A stretch of 20,000 bases of DNA from an uncultured virus (IMG/VR IMGVR_UViG_3300031722_000022) (lineage: Duplodnaviria > Heunggongvirae > Uroviricota > Caudoviricetes). The notes beneath the pieces were generated by a model. That model worked only from the letters and a program-made list of their open reading frames with translations, ran no database searches and was not told the origin of the DNA. The DNA is taken from the IMG/VR virus record IMGVR_UViG_3300031722_000022; one strand, written 5' to 3'. This document shows, piece after piece, positions 2,751 through 20,000 of the stretch (its first letter is position 1; each line of letters starts with the position of its first letter). Both the position numbers and the translations under genes were made by a program.

Positions 2751-3692
2751 TTAATATGTTACACCAAGATGTTCAAGATGCTCTCTTAGCACATACATTT
2801 GTCCTTCACGCTTACGCAGCCACAGGAAGAAAGCCATGTCGCTAAGACGATCAACTCCATCTTCAGGCCATGCCAATTTGTAGGCATCAACAACTCTTTG
2901 TGCTGCTTCTTTCTCTGTCTTTACATCACAGAGAATCTTTGCCCCTGCAACCTTACCACAAGTGTTTGTCTTAATACCGTACTTCTTTTTTGTTTCATCA
3001 GACAGCTTAAGAATACCGTCGATGTTATCTGCTGTGTCTCCCACAAGACAACTTCCCCAAAAGCCTTTATACTGCATCTTCCGTGTGTTCCAGAATACTC
3101 CTCCATCTGGTTGCTTATAGTTATACAAAGCCCCAACAGAATTTTGGTGAATATCCTTGTCGCAGAAAGCTACAACAATGTTGCTGTCTTCTACATTACC
3201 TTTTGGATTAAAATTATTCCAGCTACTGTAGCAGACGAAGTCATCAACTTCTTCTGAATCAACAACAATAACATTCTTGTTCCACTTGCTCAAAACATAT
3301 TGGTATGTATCCTTGAACAGCAATGGTTTGTCACCTCGTTGACCTTTATAGGCAACGTACTTTGCTGGATAGTCCATCCTATAATTACCAGTTCCTTGAA
3401 TACAAATTTTGTAATCAGTGTGTGGAACTGCTTCAAGGATAGCAGAAATCTTTCGCTTTACAGATGAACAAGCATATGAAGTTTCTCCGACTAACTCTTT
3501 GACAACAGTAAATGAATAGTCCTCTTTAGGGTACTTTGAGTATTCCTTGTGCCACTCATTAAATGCGCTCTTGGAGGGAAACATTTGTGATTTCCCATTA
3601 TTATTATTTGTTGCTAGACACTTGTTAATCTCTTCTGTTGCAGCACTTGCATAAACAATTGTATCTGCATCAATTAGAAGTAGTTTACTCAT
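2751..3692 (-). CDS. 5'-3' exonuclease (T7 gp6 / FEN-like family)
   Basis: LLLIDAD, YKGQR, EEVDD, DKD, GDTADNIDGI motifs; AAGGAG RBS. Confidence 0.9.
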   Translation of the reverse strand: MSKLLLIDADTIVYASAATEEINKCLATNNNNGKSQMFPSKSAFNEWHKEYSKYPKEDYSFTVVKELVGETSYACSSVKRKISAILEAVPHTDYKICIQGTGNYRMDYPAKYVAYKGQRGDKPLLFKDTYQYVLSKWNKNVIVVDSEEVDDFVCYSSWNNFNPKGNVEDSNIVVAFCDKDIHQNSVGALYNYKQPDGGVFWNTRKMQYKGFWGSCLVGDTADNIDGILKLSDETKKKYGIKTNTCGKVAGAKILCDVKTEKEAAQRVVDAYKLAWPEDGVDRLSDMAFFLWLRKREGQMYVLREHLEHLGVTY

Positions 3693-3705
3693 GCAATCTC
3701 CTTAT

Positions 3706-3727
3706 GCCCACTCCGTTTGGAGTGGGC
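3706..3727 (-). terminator. perfect 9-bp GC-rich hairpin between SSB-like and exonuclease genes (weak terminator or mRNA stabiliser)
   Basis: GCCCACTCC-N4-GGAGTGGGC; on the minus strand it is followed by ATAAGGAG (RBS) rather than a U-tract. Confidence 0.55.
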
Positions 3728-3742
3728 TATGTTTAGTCTACA

Positions 3743-4675
3743 TCAAAATGGAATATCATCAAAGTCATCATCGTCTACAGGCGGCTCAGGAACCTTCTTG
3801 GTAGTCTTTTTCGCTGCTTCCTTAGCTGCTTGCTTAGGGGGAACCTGCGGTTCTCCCTTCTTAGCCTCACCTTGCCCCTCAGAAGCCCCTTGCTGACCAT
3901 TCTGTTGCTTCTCAAACTCCTTGATTGCTGCTTCCATAGAACTGCCAGCATAATTCTTAGCCAACTTAATCTTAGCAATAAGATTCTTACGCAAGAATTT
4001 AATCTGACTTGCTTCAGCATCATCAAAGCTAATAATCATTGCAGGAGTAGCCAGTGGCTTAATCTTCATTGGAGCCTCATTGCCATCGTCGTCCTCTACC
4101 ATAGGAACCTCCGAGGCTCCACGATAATTTACATTGGTGTAGACAACAGGATTACCGTCGTCATCCTTCTTGTCTTTGCTTTCAGTCTTCTTAACTTCAA
4201 CTTGCGCCATCAGAGCCTCGTTCAAGAATTCCTCAATGTCCATACTCTCAATTACTTCCGGCTTCTGAATAGCCTTAGCAATCTTTGTGAGAAGATTCTG
4301 TGGATGAAAGCCCCAAGCCTTGCCTTGAATCTGATTACCATCAGCATCACGAGGGGGAACAGCCGTAAAGTTCACACCTTGAGTCTCCCCTTGGAAAGTC
4401 TTGTTAAGGCAAAGACGATAGGGCATCTTGCCAATTGCATCACCATAATCAACTACGTCGTTAACAAGATCAGCAAAGACAACAACTTGTTGAACAGGCT
4501 TTTGTGGTTTTACCTCACCAGTTTTTTGATCCTCAAAGTCTTCACGCTCTTGGATACCCAAGTCTACTATGAGCGAAATTCTCGCAGGACGACTACCAGC
4601 CTTCGGTGTAGGATAATTATGCTTCTCAAATGTAGTAGTGATGCTGTGATTTTGTTGCTTAGGAACAAATGCCAT
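3743..4675 (-). CDS. putative single-stranded DNA-binding protein with acidic DDIPF tail
   Basis: C-terminus DDDDFDDIPF after a Lys/Ala/Gln-rich linker; lies between polymerase and exonuclease; strong AAGGAG RBS. Confidence 0.7.
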   Translation of the reverse strand: MAFVPKQQNHSITTTFEKHNYPTPKAGSRPARISLIVDLGIQEREDFEDQKTGEVKPQKPVQQVVVFADLVNDVVDYGDAIGKMPYRLCLNKTFQGETQGVNFTAVPPRDADGNQIQGKAWGFHPQNLLTKIAKAIQKPEVIESMDIEEFLNEALMAQVEVKKTESKDKKDDDGNPVVYTNVNYRGASEVPMVEDDDGNEAPMKIKPLATPAMIISFDDAEASQIKFLRKNLIAKIKLAKNYAGSSMEAAIKEFEKQQNGQQGASEGQGEAKKGEPQVPPKQAAKEAAKKTTKKVPEPPVDDDDFDDIPF

Positions 4676-10939: not shown

Positions 10940-10968
10940 ATTCTATCAGGAAGAATGTGTGTTGTCAA
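10940..10968 (-). promoter_or_regulatory. sigma70-type promoter
   Basis: TTGACA-17-TAGAAT with extended TG; AGAAATTGC upstream; the -35 contains the HNH gene's TGA stop. Confidence 0.8.
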
Positions 10969-11645
10969 GCAATTTCTGAATTAATCTTTATTGTTCCGTT
11001 CGGCCTGTCTCCATATAACTCTTCTGAGCGGTTGTCATAGGCTGTTCCTGCATCTAGTTCATTAAAGAAATATCCTAAGTGCTCTCTTTTTCTATTTTGT
11101 TGTATATTGGAAGACCACTTTCCCACTACAATGCTCCAATACACGCCCTTATAAGCAGACGAGCAATTATTTTTCTTCCTTTGGTTATGGCTCTGTTCTG
11201 TATCCGTAGCCCAACGGCAGTTTTCTTTGCAGTAATTTCCATTAACATTAATTCTATCTAAAGTCAAGCCCTCTTCCCATGTTTCTCCCATCTCATCCCA
11301 GAATGTCTTAAAAGACTTTCGCCACTCTCTACACGTTGTAATTCCTCTTCCTCCATAGTTATTCCACTCTTCATTCTTTGGATTTGTTGTTCTCTGGATA
11401 GCTCCGCTCCAAGACGAGTATGCCGAGGATTTACACATCCCGTGTTTTGTCTTCCTCGTATTACCTAAACATCCACAAGATAAAGATTTTCCGCTTGTAA
11501 GGTTTCCTTTATATACAACAACCTCCTTTCCACACTCACACCTACATCTCCATATAGTTCCAGAATAACCCTGCTGATTACCCTCCCTACAAACAATAGT
11601 AAGCAGACCAAAATGCTGGCCTGATATATCTATTAATTTACCCAT
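10965..11645 (-). CDS. HNH-AP2 homing endonuclease
   Basis: CRCECG..SCGC, YGGRGI, LDRINVNGNYCKENCRW, SSAYKGV, LGYF..ELDA..AYDNRSE; start at the TGATG overlap with the primase-helicase stop. Confidence 0.9.
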   Translation of the reverse strand: MGKLIDISGQHFGLLTIVCREGNQQGYSGTIWRCRCECGKEVVVYKGNLTSGKSLSCGCLGNTRKTKHGMCKSSAYSSWSGAIQRTTNPKNEEWNNYGGRGITTCREWRKSFKTFWDEMGETWEEGLTLDRINVNGNYCKENCRWATDTEQSHNQRKKNNCSSAYKGVYWSIVVGKWSSNIQQNRKREHLGYFFNELDAGTAYDNRSEELYGDRPNGTIKINSEIA

Positions 11646-13384
11646 CAGAAATCCCTTGGCCCATGCATTGACATGTACTCTACCTTGTCCCACAAAGTAT
11701 GCGTCGCAGAATCATAATACATTTCACAAGCAAGACCTGTCCACCCAGTTGAACGAGACTTCAATACATGAACACTTGTGGTGTTCTTAATCATCTCGTC
11801 TGGATTATTCTTATCTCGCTGCAAAGCAATGTTTACACCCGCACTACGATATTGTGTTCCTGATCCGATAATGCTTTCTTCTGTCAGGAAAGCCCCTTGC
11901 GAAGCAGCCTTCTCCCCGCTACCAGACTTTCTAACGTGTGAGATATTAATAATAATTACACCATACTGCTTGACTATCTTCTTTTCCCATGCCATCCACT
12001 TATCTACTTCTTCAATTGTCTTCCCTGCAAAAACATCAGACAGCACATCAATACAAATTACCTTGCAGTTGCAGGCGATAATCATCTCTTCGACTTTTTC
12101 TTGCAACTGTGAGTAATCCCCACGATCATCAAGCAGGTATAGGCGGCTTGTTCCATCTTGCCGCTTGAACAAAGTATTAGCAGCATCCTCTGCCTCCTTG
12201 CTGCCCACAAAAGCAATACGTTCTTCTTTGTCCTTAATAAGAGCAATCTTCTTGCCCATATAATGTGATAGCAAGTTCTCACCAAACTCTGCTGCCTCTG
12301 CCTCAAGGGACAGTACCGCAATGTTAAGATCAAGATCAATCATCCAATAAGCAATACACTGGTTGATTGCAGATGTCTTCCCTGATCCACTCCCGGCAAG
12401 AATGTTACAAATATACCCGTAGTTCACTCCGCCTGCCAATGCACGATTAACACCTTCCATCATTGGAGGAAATGGCAACTTGTCTACTTTAGCTCGTTCC
12501 TTAATTTCACTATAGATTTGGTCACTATCTACAATGCCAGACGGCGTCCATTGCTTTGCTTTCCAGAAATCATTGATGAAAGCCTGCTCTTTTCCGTGGT
12601 TGATATATTCATCAGCATCATTAAAAGACATCTTCATAATGAATGACTTGCCTTTAGGCAGAATCTTGCAGATTGCTTCGTTTGCGAGTTGTCCTGCATC
12701 GTCCATGTCCATGCACACAACGATCTTCTTGAATTGTGACAGCCATGAGTATTGCTTCTGTACCTGTTTCCAGGCACCATTTTCTCCGATGGTTGGGGAT
12801 ACGACAGCAATAGACTCGTAGTCTTCTTTGCCCCTGCGCTTCTGATCGTCAACAAGCATTTGATACGCTGCACGTTGCTTAATCTCGCCTCCGACAATTA
12901 GACATGTGTGGTTATTGTTCTTGAAACGGAACTGCCCAACGAGATCACAATCCTTTCCAACTACGCCAACTGGTTGTGAGAAGTCCTTTGGGAAAAGGCG
13001 CGTCTTATAGCCTACAAGTTCTGAGTCGATGGTTGTTGGGACATACTCCTTGATCGGCTCCCCATTTTCTTCATCGTATTGATAGCGAACACCAAAAAAC
13101 TGGTTAATCTCTTTACGAATTCCTCGAAATCCTTTTCCGTCCGTTCCGGTATAGGATTTAATTTTATCATTCTCTTCATCTGTAATACGTTCTCGTGTAG
13201 ACACTTCTTCCTCCTCTTCAACTGTATCAATGCCTCTGGCTTCCCGTTCACTGTCAGAAAGAATGGTGTGAGAACATGCGAAACAATACCCGCCCAAACC
13301 CTCCCCATAGAAGTAGAAGTTATCGCCTTTGTCATCATGTCCTTTTTCCCTACACTTAGGACAAGGATTCTTTCCAATTTTCAA
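11645..13384 (-). CDS. T7 gp4-like DNA primase-helicase
   Basis: Zn finger CPKC..CFAC, TOPRIM DMD and NDAD, Walker A AGSGSGKT, SLE, ISHVRK, GSG, LKSRSTG; TTG start with AAGGAG. Confidence 0.95.
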   Translation of the reverse strand: MKIGKNPCPKCREKGHDDKGDNFYFYGEGLGGYCFACSHTILSDSEREARGIDTVEEEEEVSTRERITDEENDKIKSYTGTDGKGFRGIRKEINQFFGVRYQYDEENGEPIKEYVPTTIDSELVGYKTRLFPKDFSQPVGVVGKDCDLVGQFRFKNNNHTCLIVGGEIKQRAAYQMLVDDQKRRGKEDYESIAVVSPTIGENGAWKQVQKQYSWLSQFKKIVVCMDMDDAGQLANEAICKILPKGKSFIMKMSFNDADEYINHGKEQAFINDFWKAKQWTPSGIVDSDQIYSEIKERAKVDKLPFPPMMEGVNRALAGGVNYGYICNILAGSGSGKTSAINQCIAYWMIDLDLNIAVLSLEAEAAEFGENLLSHYMGKKIALIKDKEERIAFVGSKEAEDAANTLFKRQDGTSRLYLLDDRGDYSQLQEKVEEMIIACNCKVICIDVLSDVFAGKTIEEVDKWMAWEKKIVKQYGVIIINISHVRKSGSGEKAASQGAFLTEESIIGSGTQYRSAGVNIALQRDKNNPDEMIKNTTSVHVLKSRSTGWTGLACEMYYDSATHTLWDKVEYMSMHGPRDF

Positions 13385-14262: not shown

Positions 14263-14862
14263 TTATGCAACAAAAGATGGAAACGATACAGTTAGCACAT
14301 ACGGTGCTATTGGCTTGCTCAATACACGTTCTGGCTTCTCTGAATATGTCTTAAGATTCCAGCCAACTTTGATCTTCATACAGCGCTTACTAGATAACTT
14401 GATTATAGCATAGAATCCCCAATAATTGTTGATCTTTGTAAAACAATATCCTGCAACACCTGCGGGCTTATCTTGAATAAACGGATTTCCTTTTGTCTGA
14501 ACACAATCTGTAGGAAGAATGTTTGCAACTACATAGGGAGCCCTCTCAAACCTCTGTCCAGGGTTACGTAGAAGCCAGCCAAGCCTTCCAAAATAATTTT
14601 GAATACAAGGGTAGCCAGAGAGCTTCGTTCGCCAAGCCCAGTGGTCTTCCTGCATCTCCTTCCACGCCATATCGCCAAGAAGGGAGTTATCTACTGTCTG
14701 AAACCATGGTAGCCAACCAGGAAGTCTTGGTTCAATTCCTATTGCGTCCCCATTGTTAATAGGCCCATTTGCATTGGAGTAGAACATTGATAATAGCCAT
14801 GCAAACAGATAGGCTACAACATTAACAATAATATGTAGAGGAAGGATTAATAGCCATTTCAT
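14263..14862 (-). CDS. conserved phage membrane-anchored hypothetical protein
   Basis: N-terminal TM; LPGWLPWFQTVDNSLLGD and WLLRNP motifs resemble a recurring phage hypothetical family (from recollection). Confidence 0.75.
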   Translation of the reverse strand: MKWLLILPLHIIVNVVAYLFAWLLSMFYSNANGPINNGDAIGIEPRLPGWLPWFQTVDNSLLGDMAWKEMQEDHWAWRTKLSGYPCIQNYFGRLGWLLRNPGQRFERAPYVVANILPTDCVQTKGNPFIQDKPAGVAGYCFTKINNYWGFYAIIKLSSKRCMKIKVGWNLKTYSEKPERVLSKPIAPYVLTVSFPSFVA

Positions 14863-14919
14863 ATTGTTTCTACTTTAAATTAGTAATTCAATAGCAACAC
14901 AATGCACCATTCAGAATCT

Positions 14920-14947
14920 ATTCTAACATGAATAGTGGGAATGTCAA
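14920..14947 (-). promoter_or_regulatory. sigma70-type promoter
   Basis: TTGACA-16-TAGAAT with extended TG; the -35 contains the TGA stop of the upstream gene. Confidence 0.7.
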
Positions 14948-15234
14948 GAGTTGTTTGCTTTAGAAATCGCGGCCTTAGCAGAAATGATTGCTTGACGCTC
15001 ACTGTGCACTAGACCAGTAGAAGGTAGTACAATTTCAAGTTGCTCTAGGCATAGCTTTAGCGCGAAAAGCAACTCATCACGTTGTTCTTTCATCTTGTCA
15101 CAATCAACAAGCATCCAATAAATCAAGCTGTCTCCACAAAGATCACGATCCCAATGTTCTCCGTGACGTAGAGCAGTGAGCTTGCCATCGTCGTTGATTA
15201 CTGTGTATTTTCCATCTGCGAAATCATGTTGCAT
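14944..15234 (-). CDS. hypothetical protein (96 aa, MQHDFADGKY...)
   Basis: AGAGGA RBS before ATG at 15234; C-terminal 'RDELLFALK...AKAAISKA' helix common in phage early proteins. Confidence 0.75.
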   Translation of the reverse strand: MQHDFADGKYTVINDDGKLTALRHGEHWDRDLCGDSLIYWMLVDCDKMKEQRDELLFALKLCLEQLEIVLPSTGLVHSERQAIISAKAAISKANNS

Positions 15235-15238
15235 AGTA

Positions 15239-15382
15239 TTATTCCTCTTCATTCAGATAATTTGTATCTACAGAACAACCATCCTTTAACATTTGATGCC
15301 TATCGTATTCTGCATCATCAATGTCGTCATAAGATTGATTACCGAACAATCCATTTGGGTGTATCCATGGTAGTTCATACAC
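15239..15382 (-). CDS. small acidic protein (47 aa), first gene of the left arm
   Basis: Read manually; AAGGAGA-N5-GTG, same spacing as the first gene of the right arm. Confidence 0.6.
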   Translation of the reverse strand: MYELPWIHPNGLFGNQSYDDIDDAEYDRHQMLKDGCSVDTNYLNEEE

Positions 15383-15412
15383 GTTCATCTCCTTGTTGAT
15401 TAGACAGACACC

Positions 15413-15449
15413 ATCTTACCACAATATTTACAGATGTCAACACATTTCT
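15413..15449 (-). promoter_or_regulatory. leftward early promoter
   Basis: AGAAATGTG-TTGACA-16-TAAGAT with extended TG. Confidence 0.8.
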
Positions 15450-15459
15450 TCAACAATGA

Positions 15460-15495
15460 GAAATAGCCCTCATCCATTGTAGGAGAGGGCTTTGT
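15460..15495. terminator. intrinsic terminator-like hairpin, possibly bidirectional
   Basis: AGCCCTC/GAGGGCT stem plus inner TCC/GGA; followed by ATTTCT on minus and TTGTG on plus. Confidence 0.65.
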
Positions 15496-15529
15496 GTGTG
15501 TTGTTTAATTTTATGTGCGCTTTGTAGCT

Positions 15530-15995
15530 AATGTTGTCTACGCTGAGAGGATGCATACCGTGAGGTATGCTCTAGGATGTGTACACTAGCCCGAAGGGCA
15601 GGTAGTAGACGTATACTAGCGCTGTAAGCGCCTTATACTGTGTTGTATACTTAGTTCTTATATTAGTTCTTTATAACATCAACCCGAGGTTCTTAGCGCA
15701 TTTCTCCCCTTATACGCAGAGAGGCATCAGAGATGCGCCTGTAACGTGTTCAGGGGAGAGGAAGCTATTGACAGAATGCGTTAGCATCAACCGTCGGAAC
15801 ATTAGCATTGGTGTGCTTTGCAAGAACACAACAACATGGGAAGTTTAAAGGGCATCTCTCAAGATGTGCATCCCCTCTTACCGGGCCTTCCCACTACAGT
15901 ATCCTGATTGAACAGGGGGCAACTGATGTTCCAGCACCCGAAATCTCTTTAAGTAGTTTCTCCACCCTTGCCAACATGGTATTTCGATGGCTACG
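15530..15995 (+). ncRNA. candidate large structured non-coding element (ncRNA or structured ssDNA origin)
   Basis: No RBS-supported ORF, higher GC than its flanks, more than 10 stems, many nested; wobbles are G-U on plus and would be A-C on minus. Confidence 0.5.
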
Positions 15996-16046
15996 ACACA
16001 GACGAACAAGTGGTCAAAAATTTCTGTGAAGTCGTGCATCAATTGC

Positions 16047-16075
16047 TTGACACACTAGAGTTAGTGTTATATTCT
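16047..16075 (+). promoter_or_regulatory. rightward sigma70-type promoter
   Basis: TTGACA-17-TATTCT; ACACTA/TAGTGT inverted repeat spanning the end of the -35 and the spacer. Confidence 0.6.
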
Positions 16076-16115
16076 ACAACCAAGAGAATCGCTTCCCTCT
16101 TCAACTCATACATAT

Positions 16116-16144
16116 ATTATATCCTACAATTGTTAAATTGTCAA
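16116..16144 (-). promoter_or_regulatory. perfect consensus leftward promoter reading into the non-coding region
   Basis: TTGACA-17-TATAAT exact consensus. Confidence 0.85.
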
Positions 16145-16178
16145 CACCAACACATAAATAAATTAACACAAAGAATGT

Positions 16179-16216
16179 AGAAATGTGTTGACAATATGAA
16201 GAGTGTGCTATAGAAT
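16179..16216 (+). promoter_or_regulatory. rightward early promoter
   Basis: AGAAATGTG-TTGACA-17-TAGAAT. Confidence 0.8.
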
Positions 16217-16244
16217 TGCTACATACATCAACAAGGAGACTATT

Positions 16245-16415
16245 ATGACCCGTGACGAAAAGAACTCTATGGCATATAATGATTGTTCCAACTATGAAGG
16301 CCCGAGTATGCCTTATGATGAAGAATATATGCAGCGTTATAACTTTTGGAGGCCAATTGCTAAGTTTCCACTGGACAGTGACGAATATTGGGGTTATGAT
16401 GACTTGGTGTATTGA
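16245..16415 (+). CDS. small acidic protein (56 aa), first gene of the right arm
   Basis: AAGGAGA-N5-ATG. Confidence 0.75.
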   Translation: MTRDEKNSMAYNDCSNYEGPSMPYDEEYMQRYNFWRPIAKFPLDSDEYWGYDDLVY

Positions 16416-16440
16416 CAACCCACAATTCCTGCTGTAGCAT
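16412..16440 (+). promoter_or_regulatory. sigma70-type promoter
   Basis: TTGACA-17-TAGCAT; the -35 contains the upstream TGA stop. Confidence 0.6.
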
Positions 16441-16471
16441 GAACACATTGAATAACGAATAGGAGGATGAT

Positions 16472-16633
16472 ATGGAAACTATTGAATATGAAGACTTGTC
16501 TGCTGATGACAAAGTTGAGTTGAAAGTTGTCGGAAAGTTTGATGTTGCTCAAGGGGTGACACTTAATCAGTATGTCTACTTTGAAACAGGGCTTACTGAT
16601 GGAAGTTACACTCTTGTTGCTATTGCAAAGTAG
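16472..16633 (+). CDS. small hypothetical protein (53 aa, METIEYEDLS...)
   Basis: Read manually; strong AGGAGG RBS. Confidence 0.75.
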   Translation: METIEYEDLSADDKVELKVVGKFDVAQGVTLNQYVYFETGLTDGSYTLVAIAK

Positions 16634-16765
16634 CCAATAAACCCACACAATAGCCCTACATTCAATTTATACACATAAGCCCATACGAACGTATAGGTAG
16701 CCATAAAATAAACGCTTATACGTTGTTTGTATGAATATAATTAATTGCTAATTAAGGAGATAATC

Positions 16766-16963
16766 ATGGTGCAAATTGTTAGCAGTATCCCAGATCGTTC
16801 AGTAGTCAAACAAGTTGTATGTCGTCATTGTGGAAGCACTCTTGAGTATGTTCCCAGTAACGTGAAAGAATATCATGGTAAGGATTACTCAGGAGGTTCT
16901 GATGGATACGAGTGGGTTGATTGTCCACATTGTTCAAAGAAGGCTATCATTCGTAGCTGGTAG
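16766..16963 (+). CDS. Zn-ribbon protein (65 aa)
   Basis: TAAGGAG RBS; CRHC..CPHC. Confidence 0.8.
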   Translation: MVQIVSSIPDRSVVKQVVCRHCGSTLEYVPSNVKEYHGKDYSGGSDGYEWVDCPHCSKKAIIRSW

Positions 16964-17556: not shown

Positions 17557-18236
17557 ATGCGGGGCAAATTTATAAACTTAGTTGACCAGAGGTTTGGAAG
17601 ACTCTTGGTCACATCAAGAGGAAGTAACAAAAACGGGAAAGTAATGTGGAAGTGTTTGTGTGATTGTGGGGAAGAAGTCGCTGTTGTTAGCCAAGACATC
17701 CGTGAGGGTATTACTAAATCTTGTGGCTGTCTACAAAGAGACACTATTGCAGGAAGGAATACAACACATGGGATGACTAATCATCCATTATACTTTGTAT
17801 GGCCTGACATGAAGAAGCGTATATTTAATGAAGATTGTCCATCATACAAGCACTACGGTGGAAGAGGTATTAAGATTTGTGATAGATGGTTATCTATTGA
17901 AAACTTTATTGAAGATATGTATCCGTCTTATCAAGAAGGACTGTCTATACACCGAATAGATAACAATGGTGACTACACACCAGAAAACTGCAAGTGGGGG
18001 ACTGATAGTATACAATCTCACGTTCAAAGAAAGCAGTCCAATTGCTCGTCTGAGTATATTGGTGTTTGCTTCCACAGTCGAGAGCAAAAATTTATGGCGC
18101 AGATTTGTATTAATTCAAAGAACACGATCCTGGCCACTTTTTAGACGAGCATGAAGCTGCTGTTGCATATGACAATGCGTCTGAAAAGCATTTCGGTGAT
18201 CGCCCCAATAGCACCAAAGGAGTAGAGAATGCCTAA
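17557..18236 (+). pseudogene. HNH-AP2 homing endonuclease with -1 frameshift in the AP2 domain
   Basis: Frame stops at 18144, but the -1 frame from ~18132 reads GHFLDEHEAAVAYDNASEKHFGDRPNSTK, matching the paralog tails; DRID motif is HRID. Confidence 0.8.
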
Positions 18237-19477: not shown

Positions 19478-19794
19478 TAGGACATTGTGCAAAGAAAGTT
19501 GTAACATGCGACATTATTACTCTTGAGGGGGCTACGTATAAAGGGATGAACATTTGTTATAATCCACAAGAGACATGCCCCAGAGTTGGAAATGAAGGTT
19601 ATGAGAAATGTAAGAGTGTTTGCTTGCAGCCTTACCATGCAGAGATGTGGGCTTTAAGCGTAGCATTACACGATGGAGCAAATGTTAAAGGAGCTACCGC
19701 AGTAATTAGAGGAATTGGCTATTCTTGTCGTAATTGCCAGGAAGAGTTATATCGAGCAGGAATTAAATATATAACGATTGGAGAAGAATATTGA
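19474..19794 (+). CDS. dCMP/cytidine deaminase-family protein
   Basis: HAE and SCRNC zinc motifs, L...GI.. tail; adjacent to RNR. Confidence 0.8.
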   Translation: MIGHCAKKVVTCDIITLEGATYKGMNICYNPQETCPRVGNEGYEKCKSVCLQPYHAEMWALSVALHDGANVKGATAVIRGIGYSCRNCQEELYRAGIKYITIGEEY

Positions 19795-20000
19795 CAAAGT
19801 TTACAAATAGTTTTTCAGAGGAAGTATGGGAAAGCACACATAAATATTACAAAGATAAGAGTATTGATGATTCATTGCGACGAGTGGCTAAGGCTATTGC
19901 AAGTGTCGAAGCAACAGAGGAACTAAGGCAAGAGTGGGAAGAAAAGTTTTATGATCTTCTCTCCGACTTCAAGGCTACAGAAGGTGGGCGAATTTCGAGT
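19791..20000 (+). CDS. nrdJ: ribonucleotide reductase, probably class II (B12-dependent), N-terminal fragment
   Basis: Open to the window end from TTG (GGAG RBS, TTGA overlap): SEEVW...DDSLRRVAKAIASVE...W..KFYDLL.DF...GGRI; no ATP-cone. Confidence 0.7.
   Translation, partial: MTKFTNSFSEEVWESTHKYYKDKSIDDSLRRVAKAIASVEATEELRQEWEEKFYDLLSDFKATEGGRISS

What the first reader, a model, noticed from the sequence alone, without database searches (positions are those of the whole stretch)
15530..15995. Large nested structured non-coding element at the divergence point (candidate undescribed phage ncRNA or structured origin)
Seen: about 460 nt with no RBS-supported ORF that pairs extensively. Domain A is CCGAGGTT 15684-91/AACCGTCGG 15789-97, enclosing TAGCGCATTT 15694-703/GAATGCGTTA 15774-83, CTCCCCT 15704-10/AGGGGAG 15752-58, ATACG/CGTGT and GCATC-AGA-GATGC. 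Domain B is GGAACATTAG 15796-805/CTGATGTTCC 15923-32, enclosing TGGGAAG 15837-43/CTTCCCA 15887-93, GCATCT/AGATGT and CCTG/CAGG. Domain C is CGAAAT 15939-44/ATTTCG 15981-86. About six wobbles are G-U on the plus strand and would be A-C on minus, so the plus strand looks like the selected folding strand. I could not match it to tRNA, tmRNA or group I cores. Inference: a functional multi-domain RNA, or an ssDNA structure used in replication or packaging.
Basis: partly seen in the sequence, partly recalled or inferred. Interest (0 to 1): 0.85.

Follow-up and report, generated by a model that had tools for sequence, protein, structure and literature searches.

The report
Conserved non-coding RNA cassette in phage
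Between two outward-facing early promoters of an uncultivated phage lies a roughly 790-base non-coding cassette with its own strong promoter, conserved hairpins and a terminator, most likely a new structured early RNA read from the strand opposite to the one first proposed.

Summary
The helices are at the stated coordinates, and no frame there is conserved. Folding is better than chance only in parts. The 466 nt give z -2.3 on both strands. Domain A gives z -4.0/-4.3, Domains B/C about 0. No Rfam, tRNA or tmRNA match.

One diverged relative (L003) shares only window 15812-16121. There, inner helices of Domain B keep pairing through double changes: 7 of 26 core pairs, none broken. The outer stem of Domain B and the stem of Domain C are not kept. 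The consensus fold is stronger on the minus strand (z -4.2, 0 of 200 shuffles) than on the plus strand (z -1.6, 10 of 200).

A 12-of-12 sigma-70-type promoter, P2 (16144..16116), points leftwards through the finding towards a terminator-like hairpin (15465-15491). Contigs from four other sequencing runs hold about 15432-16224 at 80-99% likeness, with unlike flanks.

Best reading (0.55): an autonomous early transcription unit for a roughly 650-nt structured non-coding RNA or leader on the minus strand. Its function is unknown and no strand-specific expression data exist. A DNA-level role, such as an origin, is not excluded.

The parts
15413..15440 (-). P1: sigma-70-type promoter for the leftward genes (first start codon at 15388); left edge of the conserved cassette
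   Evidence: TTGACA-16-TAAGAT with TG, 10 of 12. Its 18-nt upstream box is repeated at P3 (I3). Contigs of other runs stop matching at 15432-15447.
15465..15491 (.). Terminator-like hairpin (7+3 bp, one bulge, 6-nt loop) with U-rich tails on both strands; proposed 3' end of the P2 RNA, directly before P1
   Evidence: Energy -17.8 kcal/mol on minus (z -4.1) and -16.8 on plus (z -3.05). No substitution is listed for it in X19, X21 or X22; only 2-nt length changes in the GT run at 15493/15498. The simple terminator scan missed it.
15549..15638 (.). Variable hairpin stretch: H1 15549-15573, H2 15579-15610, H3 15611-15638
   Evidence: Present in the folds. 15451-15600 is the most extreme of 133 windows. 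In X19, 20 of the 30 substitutions listed for 15432-16017 fall in 15500-15620. The H2 pair 15590-15598 changes C-G to T-A. H1 is mostly deleted in X21. H2 and H3 share a GTAYACTAGC+hairpin unit with a second region of the relative.
15651..15671 (.). AT-rich stretch with a TTAGTTCTT direct repeat (15651-59 and 15663-71)
   Evidence: Read from the sequence. One X19 change at 15667. Function unknown.
15684..15797 (.).
   Evidence: Energy -42.9 kcal/mol on plus (z -4.03) and -39.2 on minus (z -4.27), 0 of 200 shuffles each. In X19 only 15744 A>G and a 1-nt deletion at 15768, both in loops. No counterpart in L003.
15807..15893 (-). Conserved core: a hairpin at 15807-15835 and a three-tier hairpin at 15837-15893 (helices 15837-43/15887-93, 15847-52/15872-77, 15853-58/15863-66)
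   Evidence: 26 pairs, 7 changed on both sides, 0 broken between window and L003. 3 of 500 shuffles reach this; slid controls give 0. Independent single-sequence folds give the same helices. Helix 15847-52/15872-77 is 6 bp only on the minus strand, through G-U pairs. No X19 change is listed in 15745-15883.
15902..15917 (.).
   Evidence: Both phages fold a hairpin here on their own, TCCTG/CAGGG against CACTG/CAGTG. MAFFT misaligns it, so column counts show 2 of 4 pairs. The X19/X21 change at 15910 lies in its loop.
15997..16028 (.). Hairpin CACAGA/TCTGTG around a 20-nt loop that is 19 of 20 identical in L003
   Evidence: The pair 16002-16023 changes A-T to G-C. In X19 the 3' arm lies in a replaced segment, 16018-16079.
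16047..16075 (+). P4: weaker promoter-like site facing P2
   Evidence: TTGACA-17-TATTCT, 10 of 12. L003 has TTGACA-17-TAACAT. Replaced by 65 unlike letters in X19.
16082..16099 (-). Hairpin at the 5' end of the predicted P2 RNA, in the best-conserved block
   Evidence: 7 bp on the minus strand, including G-U pairs, in both phages. The plus strand folds nothing comparable: -3.1 against -8.2 kcal/mol.
16116..16144 (-). P2: consensus sigma-70 promoter firing leftwards; predicted start near 16109
   Evidence: TTGACA-17-TATAAT, 12 of 12. L003 has TTGACT-17-TATAAT with TG, 11 of 12. The four listed X19 changes (16115, 16125, 16145, 16151) all lie outside the two hexamers; 3 of X19's 7 changes in 16080-16184 are not listed.
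16188..16216 (+). P3: promoter for the rightward small genes (first start codon at 16245); right edge of the cassette
   Evidence: TTGACA-17-TAGAAT, 11 of 12. Contigs of other runs stop matching at 16224.

Best explanation
The finding is the inner part of a roughly 790-bp non-coding cassette (about 15432-16224) that separates two outward-facing early promoters, P1 and P3, of an uncultivated roughly 80-90-kb phage.

Inside the cassette a third promoter, P2 (16144..16116), matches the sigma-70 consensus perfectly and points leftwards. I infer that the host polymerase starts near 16109 and makes a non-coding RNA of about 650 nt on the MINUS strand. In order, that RNA would carry:
- a 5' hairpin (16099-16082);
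- a roughly 300-nt conserved part, whose hairpins at 16028-15997, 15893-15837 and 15835-15807 are kept by compensatory change;
- a lineage-specific part, made of the complement of Domain A and three short hairpins;
- the terminator-like hairpin 15491-15465, just before P1.

In the relative L003 the same promoter and 5' part lead straight into a homing-endonuclease gene, which is followed by a terminator-like hairpin. The conserved 300 nt can therefore also serve as a 5' leader.

Shown: the promoters as sequence matches, the helices, the compensatory changes, the absence of a conserved frame, and the conservation of the cassette beside unlike flanks.

Inferred: that P2 fires, that the RNA ends at 15465-15491, and that the hairpins act as RNA.

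Most likely role (a guess): an early structured RNA that works in cis, either terminating before P1 or reading through into the leftward genes. A role in trans on a host or phage factor is less likely. The cassette is exchanged between phages at its promoter ends.
For: Promoters:
- P2 matches 12 of 12. P1, P3 and P4 match 10-11 of 12.
- L003 keeps P2 (11 of 12, with TG), P3 and P4.
- The four listed X19 changes near P2 all avoid its hexamers.
- The scan finds no plus-strand site between 15428 and 16047.

Structure conservation between window and L003:
- Over 15806-16112 on the minus strand: RNAalifold energy -49.5, 72 pairs, 18 changed on both sides, z -4.21. 0 of 200 column shuffles reach either the energy or the count.
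- On the plus strand: energy -27.1, 43 pairs, 10 changed on both sides, z -1.64, with 10 and 11 of 200 shuffles reaching them.
- Within the finding (15806-15995): minus z -3.12 (0 of 300), plus z -1.92 (12 of 300).
- Core 15800-15900: 26 pairs, 7 with both sides changed, 0 broken. 3 of 500 shuffles reach this, and slid controls give 0.
- Two helices (16082-99 and 15847-52/15872-77) are complete only on the minus strand, through G-U pairs, in both phages.

Non-coding:
- Indels break every frame between window and L003.
- The X19 changes at 15899 and 15910 put stop codons into the only minus-strand frame. 15899 is also seen in X21 and X22, and 15910 in X21.

Conservation as a unit:
- Contigs of 4 of 4 laid runs cover parts of 15432-16224 at 80-99% likeness and run into unlike sequence at 15432-15447 and at 16224.
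- One contig of 2975 nt carries 2223 nt of unlike left flank.

Terminator hairpin: -17.8 kcal/mol, z -4.1.
Against: - There are no strand-specific expression data. All laid runs were contigs, which cannot show strand, ends or level.
- Only two diverged full sequences exist, so covariation rests on one pairwise comparison plus an incomplete table of variants.
- Several one-sided changes or wobbles favour the plus strand: 15609 A>G (X19), 15587 T>C (X21), the T-G pair at 15902/15917, and three G-T pairs in Domain A.
- Domain A forms its full continuous hairpin only on the plus strand (-42.9 against -39.2 kcal/mol).
- The conserved core is not unusually stable (z -0.3 to -0.7).
- The terminator has a modest U-tract, and the terminator scan did not call it.
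- The unit is itself mosaic. 16018-16079 is replaced in X19, and 15620-16155 is replaced by 796 other letters in one X21 contig. Left of 15800 is absent from L003. This does not fit a single indivisible RNA.
- Three relatives with 61-62% primase identity lack the element.
- Inverted repeats that change on both arms are also what a symmetric protein-binding site would show.
Confidence: 0.55

Rival explanations
1. A DNA-level element: a replication origin, or a control region whose inverted repeats are extruded or bound by proteins. The strong divergent promoters would supply unwinding or a primer transcript, as at the T7 and T4 origins and in ColE1 (comparison recalled, not tested).
For: - The cassette lies at the divergence point of the gene clusters, about 2 kb from the primase/helicase gene.
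- The cumulative GC skew has its minimum there, both in the own 40-kb record (at 4 kb) and in the relative's 80-kb record (at 14 kb).
- There is an AT-rich stretch with a 9-nt direct repeat at 15651-15671.
- The cassette is conserved without coding for protein.
- A second divergent region of the relative also carries an array of short GC-rich hairpins but no strong internal promoter.
- Arms that change together fit symmetric protein sites as well as RNA helices.
Against: - GC skew follows gene orientation here: there is a second minimum at 68 kb and a maximum at 36 kb in G001. So it does not single out an origin.
- Helices that are complete only through G-U pairs on one strand, and the strand asymmetry of the consensus fold, are expected for RNA, not for duplex protein sites.
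- There are no iteron array, no DnaA-box-like repeats and no initiator gene next to it.
- Nothing here measures origin activity.
Confidence: 0.2
2. One reading: a multi-domain RNA on the PLUS strand covering 15530-15995.
For: - Domain A folds into the complete nested hairpin only on the plus strand, using three G-U pairs.
- Some one-sided changes keep plus-strand wobbles: 15609 A>G and 15587 T>C.
- The plus-strand consensus fold is weakly better than its shuffles: z -1.64 to -1.92, with 10 of 200 and 12 of 300 shuffles reaching it.
Against: - The scan lists only a 9-of-12 plus-strand site at 15401-15428, left of the element. A terminator-like hairpin at 15465-15491 follows it directly.
- In L003 a gene on the other strand abuts the element, leaving about 120 nt with no convincing promoter.
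- The minus strand wins the comparative test clearly.
- The outer stem of Domain B and the Domain C stem, which define the proposed domains, are not conserved.
Confidence: 0.1
3. No dedicated RNA function. The region would be a promoter-terminator spacer whose hairpins merely stop and insulate transcription. Its conservation would reflect recent recombination at shared promoter cassettes, as with the PeSL motifs of T4-like phages.
For: - A terminator-like hairpin lies directly before P1, forming a composite terminator/promoter.
- P1 and P3 share an 18-nt upstream box, and the two divergent first genes share an identical 13-nt 5' leader with ribosome-binding site (I3, I4).
- Relatives diverge exactly beyond these promoters, and inner segments are swapped.
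- Similar short hairpin units recur elsewhere in the relative.
- The abstract of PMC4122927 describes such cassettes as points of genetic exchange.
Against: - This does not explain a 12-of-12 promoter aimed into a gene-free stretch, and kept in L003.
- It does not explain compensatory changes in non-terminator helices.
- It does not explain the near-invariance of 15620-15880 in X19 (two substitutions and one deletion) next to stretches with 10-17% change.
Confidence: 0.15

Closest known systems
5'UTR-derived and promoter-proximal non-coding RNAs of virulent Pseudomonas phages (ONT-cappable-seq study, PMC10914365; passages read)
   Same: A promoter is followed by a structured, ORF-free stretch and a terminator upstream of the genes. 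Such elements are conserved among close relatives. One PAK_P3 candidate lies upstream of the primase/helicase gene.
   Different: Those RNAs are mostly under 250 nt and were seen as transcripts. This one is predicted to be about 650 nt, has no expression data and shows no sequence similarity to any phage record (no match among 50,697 records). This phage's primase is only 44% identical to that group's.
PeSL composite promoter-terminator cassettes of T4-like phages (PMC4122927, abstract read; PMC2839356, search listing only)
   Same: An early sigma-70-type promoter sits next to a stem-loop terminator. The promoter sequence is repeated within the genome. Unrelated genes are exchanged at the cassette between close relatives.
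   Different: PeSLs are small motifs. Here the two promoter ends enclose about 650 nt with its own promoter and covarying helices. This phage is not T4-like.
ColE1 RNA II / RNA I, and the transcription-activated origins of T7 and T4 (recalled, no call)
   Same: A strong promoter makes a long structured non-coding transcript near replication functions. A facing promoter (P4) would give an RNA complementary to the first roughly 27 nt of the P2 RNA.
   Different: No Rfam match to RNAI or any other family. P4 is replaced in one variant. No origin activity is known.
HK022 put-type cis-acting antiterminator RNAs (recalled, no call)
   Same: Hairpins encoded just downstream of an early promoter, with a terminator further downstream and before the genes.
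   Different: No sequence or structure comparison could be made here. Read-through of the 15465-15491 hairpin is untested.
Group I introns with homing-endonuclease ORFs
   Same: A structured RNA with a homing-endonuclease gene beside it in L003.
   Different: No match to any Rfam family, group I introns included. There are no flanking exons, since a promoter lies directly 5' of it. The endonuclease gene is absent from this place in the window.

Membership tests
Any Rfam 15 family (including 6S RNA, RNAI, group I/II introns, HEARO, riboswitches) | Covariance-model score at or above the family's gathering threshold | tested here: not met
   0 matches at gathering score in the 20-kb window. In 15300-16300 at E up to 10 there are 5 matches of 13-19 bits against thresholds of 37-64 bits, all to unrelated families.
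tRNA / tmRNA | Cloverleaf or tmRNA fold found by ARAGORN | tested here: not met
   0 genes in the window.
Group I intron | Interrupts a gene (flanking exons) and has the conserved catalytic core | tested here: not met
   No interrupted ORF. Promoter P2 lies directly 5' of the element. No Rfam hit.
PeSL-like composite terminator/promoter cassette | Early sigma-70-type promoter next to a stem-loop terminator | tested here: met
   Hairpin 15465-15491 (z -4.1) lies 24 nt from the -35 box of P1.
PeSL-like composite terminator/promoter cassette | The same motif is repeated in the genome and lies at junctions where relatives carry different genes | tested here: met
   The 18-nt box is shared by P1 and P3, and GTGTTGACA by P1, P2 and P3. 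Relatives' contigs diverge at 15432-15447 and at 16224. The flanking genes differ in L003.
PeSL-like composite terminator/promoter cassette | A small motif with nothing but promoter and terminator; found in T4-like phages | tested here: not met
   About 650 nt with its own promoter and covarying helices lie between the ends. The primase's best matches are PAK_P1-type Pseudomonas phages, not T4-like phages.
Promoter-proximal / 5'UTR-derived phage ncRNA | A defined transcription start and a 3' end at a terminator upstream of the first gene, seen as an RNA species | not testable with these tools
   Only contigs could be laid; they show no strand or ends. Promoter and terminator are sequence predictions.
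Structured functional RNA (general criterion) | Base pairs kept by compensatory change beyond a shuffled-alignment null | tested here: met
   Minus strand: 18 double changes against 7.8 +/- 2.6 in shuffles, 0 of 200 reaching it, energy z -4.21. Core: 7 of 26 pairs, 3 of 500 shuffles. Caveat: only two sequences.
Replication origin | Origin activity, or an initiator-binding repeat array | not testable with these tools
   Only indirect hints: the GC-skew minimum, and an AT-rich stretch with a 2-copy repeat. No iteron array was found.

The most novel reading that the evidence does not exclude
A self-contained 'RNA-only moron': a promoter, a roughly 650-nt structured non-coding RNA and a terminator, passed as a cassette between otherwise different phages in peat, wastewater and other habitats. 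The RNA would be made in the first minutes of infection and would act in trans, for example as a decoy for a host defence or RNA-binding factor, or as a primer RNA for replication. It would represent an RNA family absent from Rfam.
Probability: 0.25. Interest if true: 0.75.

Novelty: new variant of a known kind. Interest (0 to 1): 0.55.

Why it matters
Few non-coding RNAs of virulent phages are known, and almost none has a function. This is a candidate with its own consensus promoter and helices kept by compensatory change. Its sequence is better conserved than the genes around it, across several habitats. If the RNA is real, it is a new family that can be tested directly by transcription, folding, deletion and partner search. 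It would also show that phages exchange RNA-only transcription units at promoter cassettes, as they exchange small early genes.

Tried and rejected
More homologues:
- Phage records: no match for 15390-16245 among 50,697 records.
- IMG/VR: four DNA-pattern scans and three protein-anchored scans. They gave only a 100%-identical contig and L003. L045 was a chance hit.
- Metagenome contigs: 20 stretches, of which only the window's own contig aligned beyond the 20-22-nt pattern.
- GTDB genomes: 10 stretches, none related by the covariance model (best E 0.92).
- Relatives with 61-62% primase identity: no homologue by BLAST (best E 0.05) or by model R1.

Coding readings:
- The minus-strand ORF 15878-16042 shares only a short similar stretch with the L003 ORF 1371-1607. 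Its changes fall at second codon positions, the frame shifts afterwards, and variants carry stops.
- The plus-strand ORFs 15808-16029 and 15968-16180 have no counterpart of 45 aa or more in L003.

Functional ideas:
- CsrA/Rsm sponge: GGA occurs 8 times against 8.9 +/- 2.6 expected.
- Antisense targets in the phage genomes: only 13-15-nt chance-level matches.

Other:
- Whether the coverage by RNA-library contigs (X22, X24) means expression: contigs cannot show it.
- The PAK_P3 sRNA1/2 are roughly 100-200-nt late RNAs near tRNA genes, a different thing.

Full report
WHAT THE WINDOW IS

The window is part of a 40,133-base virus record from a metagenome, with completeness estimated at 45%. It encodes a primase/helicase (11645-13384, minus strand; PHROG 239, E 5e-149). 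The best matches to that protein among 50,697 phage records are PAK_P1-type Pseudomonas phages, at 43-44% identity.

Genes left of 15388 run leftwards, and genes right of 16245 run rightwards. The finding lies in the 857-bp gap between them. The rightward genes are small ORFs without known families. The leftward set holds unknown genes, a cell-wall hydrolase and the primase. Two HNH homing-endonuclease genes lie further out.

CHECKING THE OBSERVATION

The plus-strand fold of 15684-15797 reproduces Domain A exactly.

The fold is better than chance only in parts:
- 15530-15995 as a whole: z -2.30 on plus (0 of 100 shuffles) and -2.29 on minus (2 of 100).
- Domain A alone: z -4.03 and -4.27, 0 of 200 shuffles each.
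- 15451-15600 (terminator-like hairpin plus H1): rank 1 of 133 tiled windows of the 20 kb, z -3.3 on plus and -6.7 on minus.
- Domains B and C: ordinary, z between +0.9 and -1.1.

Rfam gives nothing at gathering score, and only 13-19-bit noise at E up to 10. ARAGORN finds no tRNA or tmRNA.

PROMOTERS AND TERMINATOR

The gap holds four sigma-70-type sites:
- P1 (minus strand, 15440..15413, 10 of 12) for the leftward genes.
- P3 (plus strand, 16188..16216, 11 of 12) for the rightward genes.
- P2 (minus strand, 16144..16116, 12 of 12), pointing leftwards into the gene-free stretch.
- P4 (plus strand, 16047..16075, 10 of 12), facing P2.

P1, P2 and P3 share GTGTTGACA. P1 and P3 share an 18-nt box. 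The two first genes share an identical 13-nt leader with ribosome-binding site.

A hairpin at 15465-15491 has U-rich tails on both sides and lies just before P1 (-17.8 kcal/mol on minus, z -4.1). The simple terminator scan did not call it.

A transcript from P2 would start near 16109, cross the whole finding on the minus strand and meet this hairpin after about 650 nt. The scan found no plus-strand site between 15428 and 16047.

RELATIVES

Searches of phage records, IMG/VR, metagenome contigs and GTDB genomes gave one identical copy and one diverged relative. The relative is L003, part of the 80-kb record G001. Its primase is 96% identical in protein and 85% in DNA.

Only window 15812-16121 aligns with L003, at 69% over 324 columns. 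It is one of 15 alignable segments in the 20 kb.

L003 keeps P2 (TTGACT-17-TATAAT with TG), P3 and P4. Left of the shared part it has a homing-endonuclease gene (L003 1820-2539), a terminator-like hairpin (2614-2639) and other genes. Domain A and the hairpins left of it have no counterpart there.

Three relatives with 61-62% primase identity lack the element, by BLAST and by a covariance model of the core.

IS IT CODING?

No. Indels break every frame between window and L003. L003 has no ORF of 45 aa or more on the strand matching the window's plus strand. The two minus-strand ORFs share only a short similar stretch, with changes at second codon positions (sequence). Natural variants put two stop codons into the window's minus-strand frame.

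IS THE PAIRING SELECTED?

Folded on their own, window and L003 give the same hairpins at the same anchored places.

Core 15800-15900:
- RNAalifold predicts 26 pairs. 7 changed on both sides, and none is broken.
- 3 of 500 shuffles reach this count, and slid controls give 0.
- Helix 15837-43/15887-93 alone has three double changes.

A null that re-runs RNAalifold on column-shuffled alignments gives, for 15806-16112:
- Minus strand: energy -49.5, 18 double changes, z -4.21. 0 of 200 shuffles reach either.
- Plus strand: energy -27.1, 10 double changes, z -1.64. 10 and 11 of 200 shuffles reach them.

Inside the finding's own limits (15806-15995), the minus strand gives z -3.12 (0 of 300) and the plus strand z -1.92 (12 of 300).

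Two helices are complete only on the minus strand, through G-U pairs, in both phages: 16082-99 at the predicted 5' end, and 15847-52/15872-77.

- Outer stem of Domain B: 4 of 10 pairs kept.
- Helix 15837-43/15887-93: 6 of 7 kept, 3 of them by double change.
- Domain C stem: 3 of 6 kept.

VARIANTS IN OTHER RUNS

24 public runs hold at least part of 15400-16300. 18 are peat metagenomes, one of which may be the source of this DNA. The others come from wastewater, water and a mosquito sample.

I laid contigs of four runs (X19, X21, X22, X24) on 14800-16800 at 80% likeness or more. They cover parts of 15432-16224. They run into unlike sequence at 15432-15447 (the -35 box of P1) and at 16224 (the predicted start of P3).

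One X19 contig of 2975 nt covers 15432-16017 with 35 other letters and 6 gaps, then 16080-16184 with 7 other letters. Its 2223 nt of left flank do not lie on the window. So the non-coding cassette is kept while its neighbours differ.

The cassette is also mosaic inside. X19 replaces 16018-16079 with 65 other letters. One X21 contig replaces 15620-16155 with 796.

Of the 30 X19 substitutions listed for 15432-16017 (35 exist):
- 20 fall in 15500-15620.
- 10 fall in 15884-15983.
- Only 15667 and 15744, plus a 1-nt deletion at 15768, fall in 15620-15880.

Both changes in Domain A are in loops. In hairpin H2, the pair 15590-15598 changes C-G to T-A.

Read by hand from table 3:
- 15928 G>A and 15929 T>C turn two inner pairs of the Domain B outer stem into A-C on the plus strand. 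On the minus strand they become G-U.
- 15944 T>A and 15983 T>C break 2 of the 6 Domain C pairs.

Changes that instead favour the plus strand are 15609 A>G and 15587 T>C. The wobble evidence left of 15800 is therefore mixed.

Contigs cannot show strand, ends or expression. That two of the runs are metatranscriptome libraries is no more than a weak hint.

BEST EXPLANATION

The finding is the inside of a promoter-bounded, non-coding cassette. Its main content is an autonomous transcription unit: P2, about 300 nt of conserved hairpins, about 340 nt of lineage-specific stable hairpins (including Domain A), and a terminator-like hairpin before P1. In L003 the same promoter and 5' part serve as the leader of a homing-endonuclease gene.

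I put 0.55 on a minus-strand structured RNA or leader made early by the host polymerase. Its role is unknown. My best guess is a cis-acting early RNA that either terminates before P1 or reads through into the leftward genes. A trans-acting decoy or a primer RNA is the bolder option.

RIVALS

- A DNA-level origin or control region (0.2). GC-skew minima fall on the cassette in both records, but they also track gene orientation.
- A mere promoter-terminator spacer that is conserved because of exchange at its ends (0.15). The terminator-promoter ends do resemble the PeSL cassettes of T4-like phages (abstract of PMC4122927).

COMPARISON WITH WHAT IS KNOWN

Promoter-proximal non-coding RNAs of virulent Pseudomonas phages are the nearest described kind (PMC10914365, passages read; PMC4933390, passages read). 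They are shorter and unrelated in sequence.

The element belongs to no Rfam family. I have not seen it in print. My two literature searches were aimed at related phage RNAs and PeSLs, not at this sequence, so this is not a claim of absence. The supplements of these papers were not read.

LIMITS

- Only two diverged sequences are available.
- The variant table is incomplete: 48 substitutions and 13 indels were not shown.
- The host is unknown.
- There are no stranded RNA data.

Noticed in passing
L038 7556-8389 (G001:C1 about 67,556-68,389): The relative has a second non-coding divergent region of about 830 nt, packed with short GC-rich triloop hairpins (8 perfect 5-bp stems). It includes GTAYACTAGC+hairpin units like window H2 and H3. 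It has one strong rightward promoter at its right end, and no Rfam or tRNA match.
   Followed up: partly
window 15388-15400 and 16227-16239; 15435-15452 and 16176-16193: The two divergent first genes have an identical 13-nt leader with ribosome-binding site (ATCAACAAGGAGA). Promoters P1 and P3 share an 18-nt upstream box (17 of 18 bases). This looks like a duplicated promoter cassette.
   Followed up: partly
window 10965-11693 (-), 17557-18144 (+); L003 1820-2539: Three paralogous HNH homing-endonuclease genes (PHROG 374). The L003 copy sits directly downstream of the conserved element, where the window has Domain A and the hairpins.
   Followed up: partly
window 3151-3750: Strong local folding signal (z down to -5.0 on plus and -3.7 on minus in 150-nt windows), in a stretch that long ORFs cover almost completely. 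It ranks second among the 133 windows.
   Followed up: no
window 16572, 16595, 16726, 16731, 16732; window 19621-20000: The window differs from its 'own' contig at five positions, and its last 380 bases lie off that contig. The window therefore comes from a near-identical but not identical record.
   Followed up: no
window 16047-16109: P4 and P2 face each other, and their predicted transcripts overlap by about 27 nt (16082-16109), across the best-conserved block. This arrangement could give transcriptional interference or antisense pairing. P4 is replaced in variant X19.
   Followed up: partly
L037 19123-19198 (G001:C1 about 59,123-59,198): A single tRNA-Thr (anticodon TGT) gene in the relative's genome. 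The window has none.
   Followed up: no
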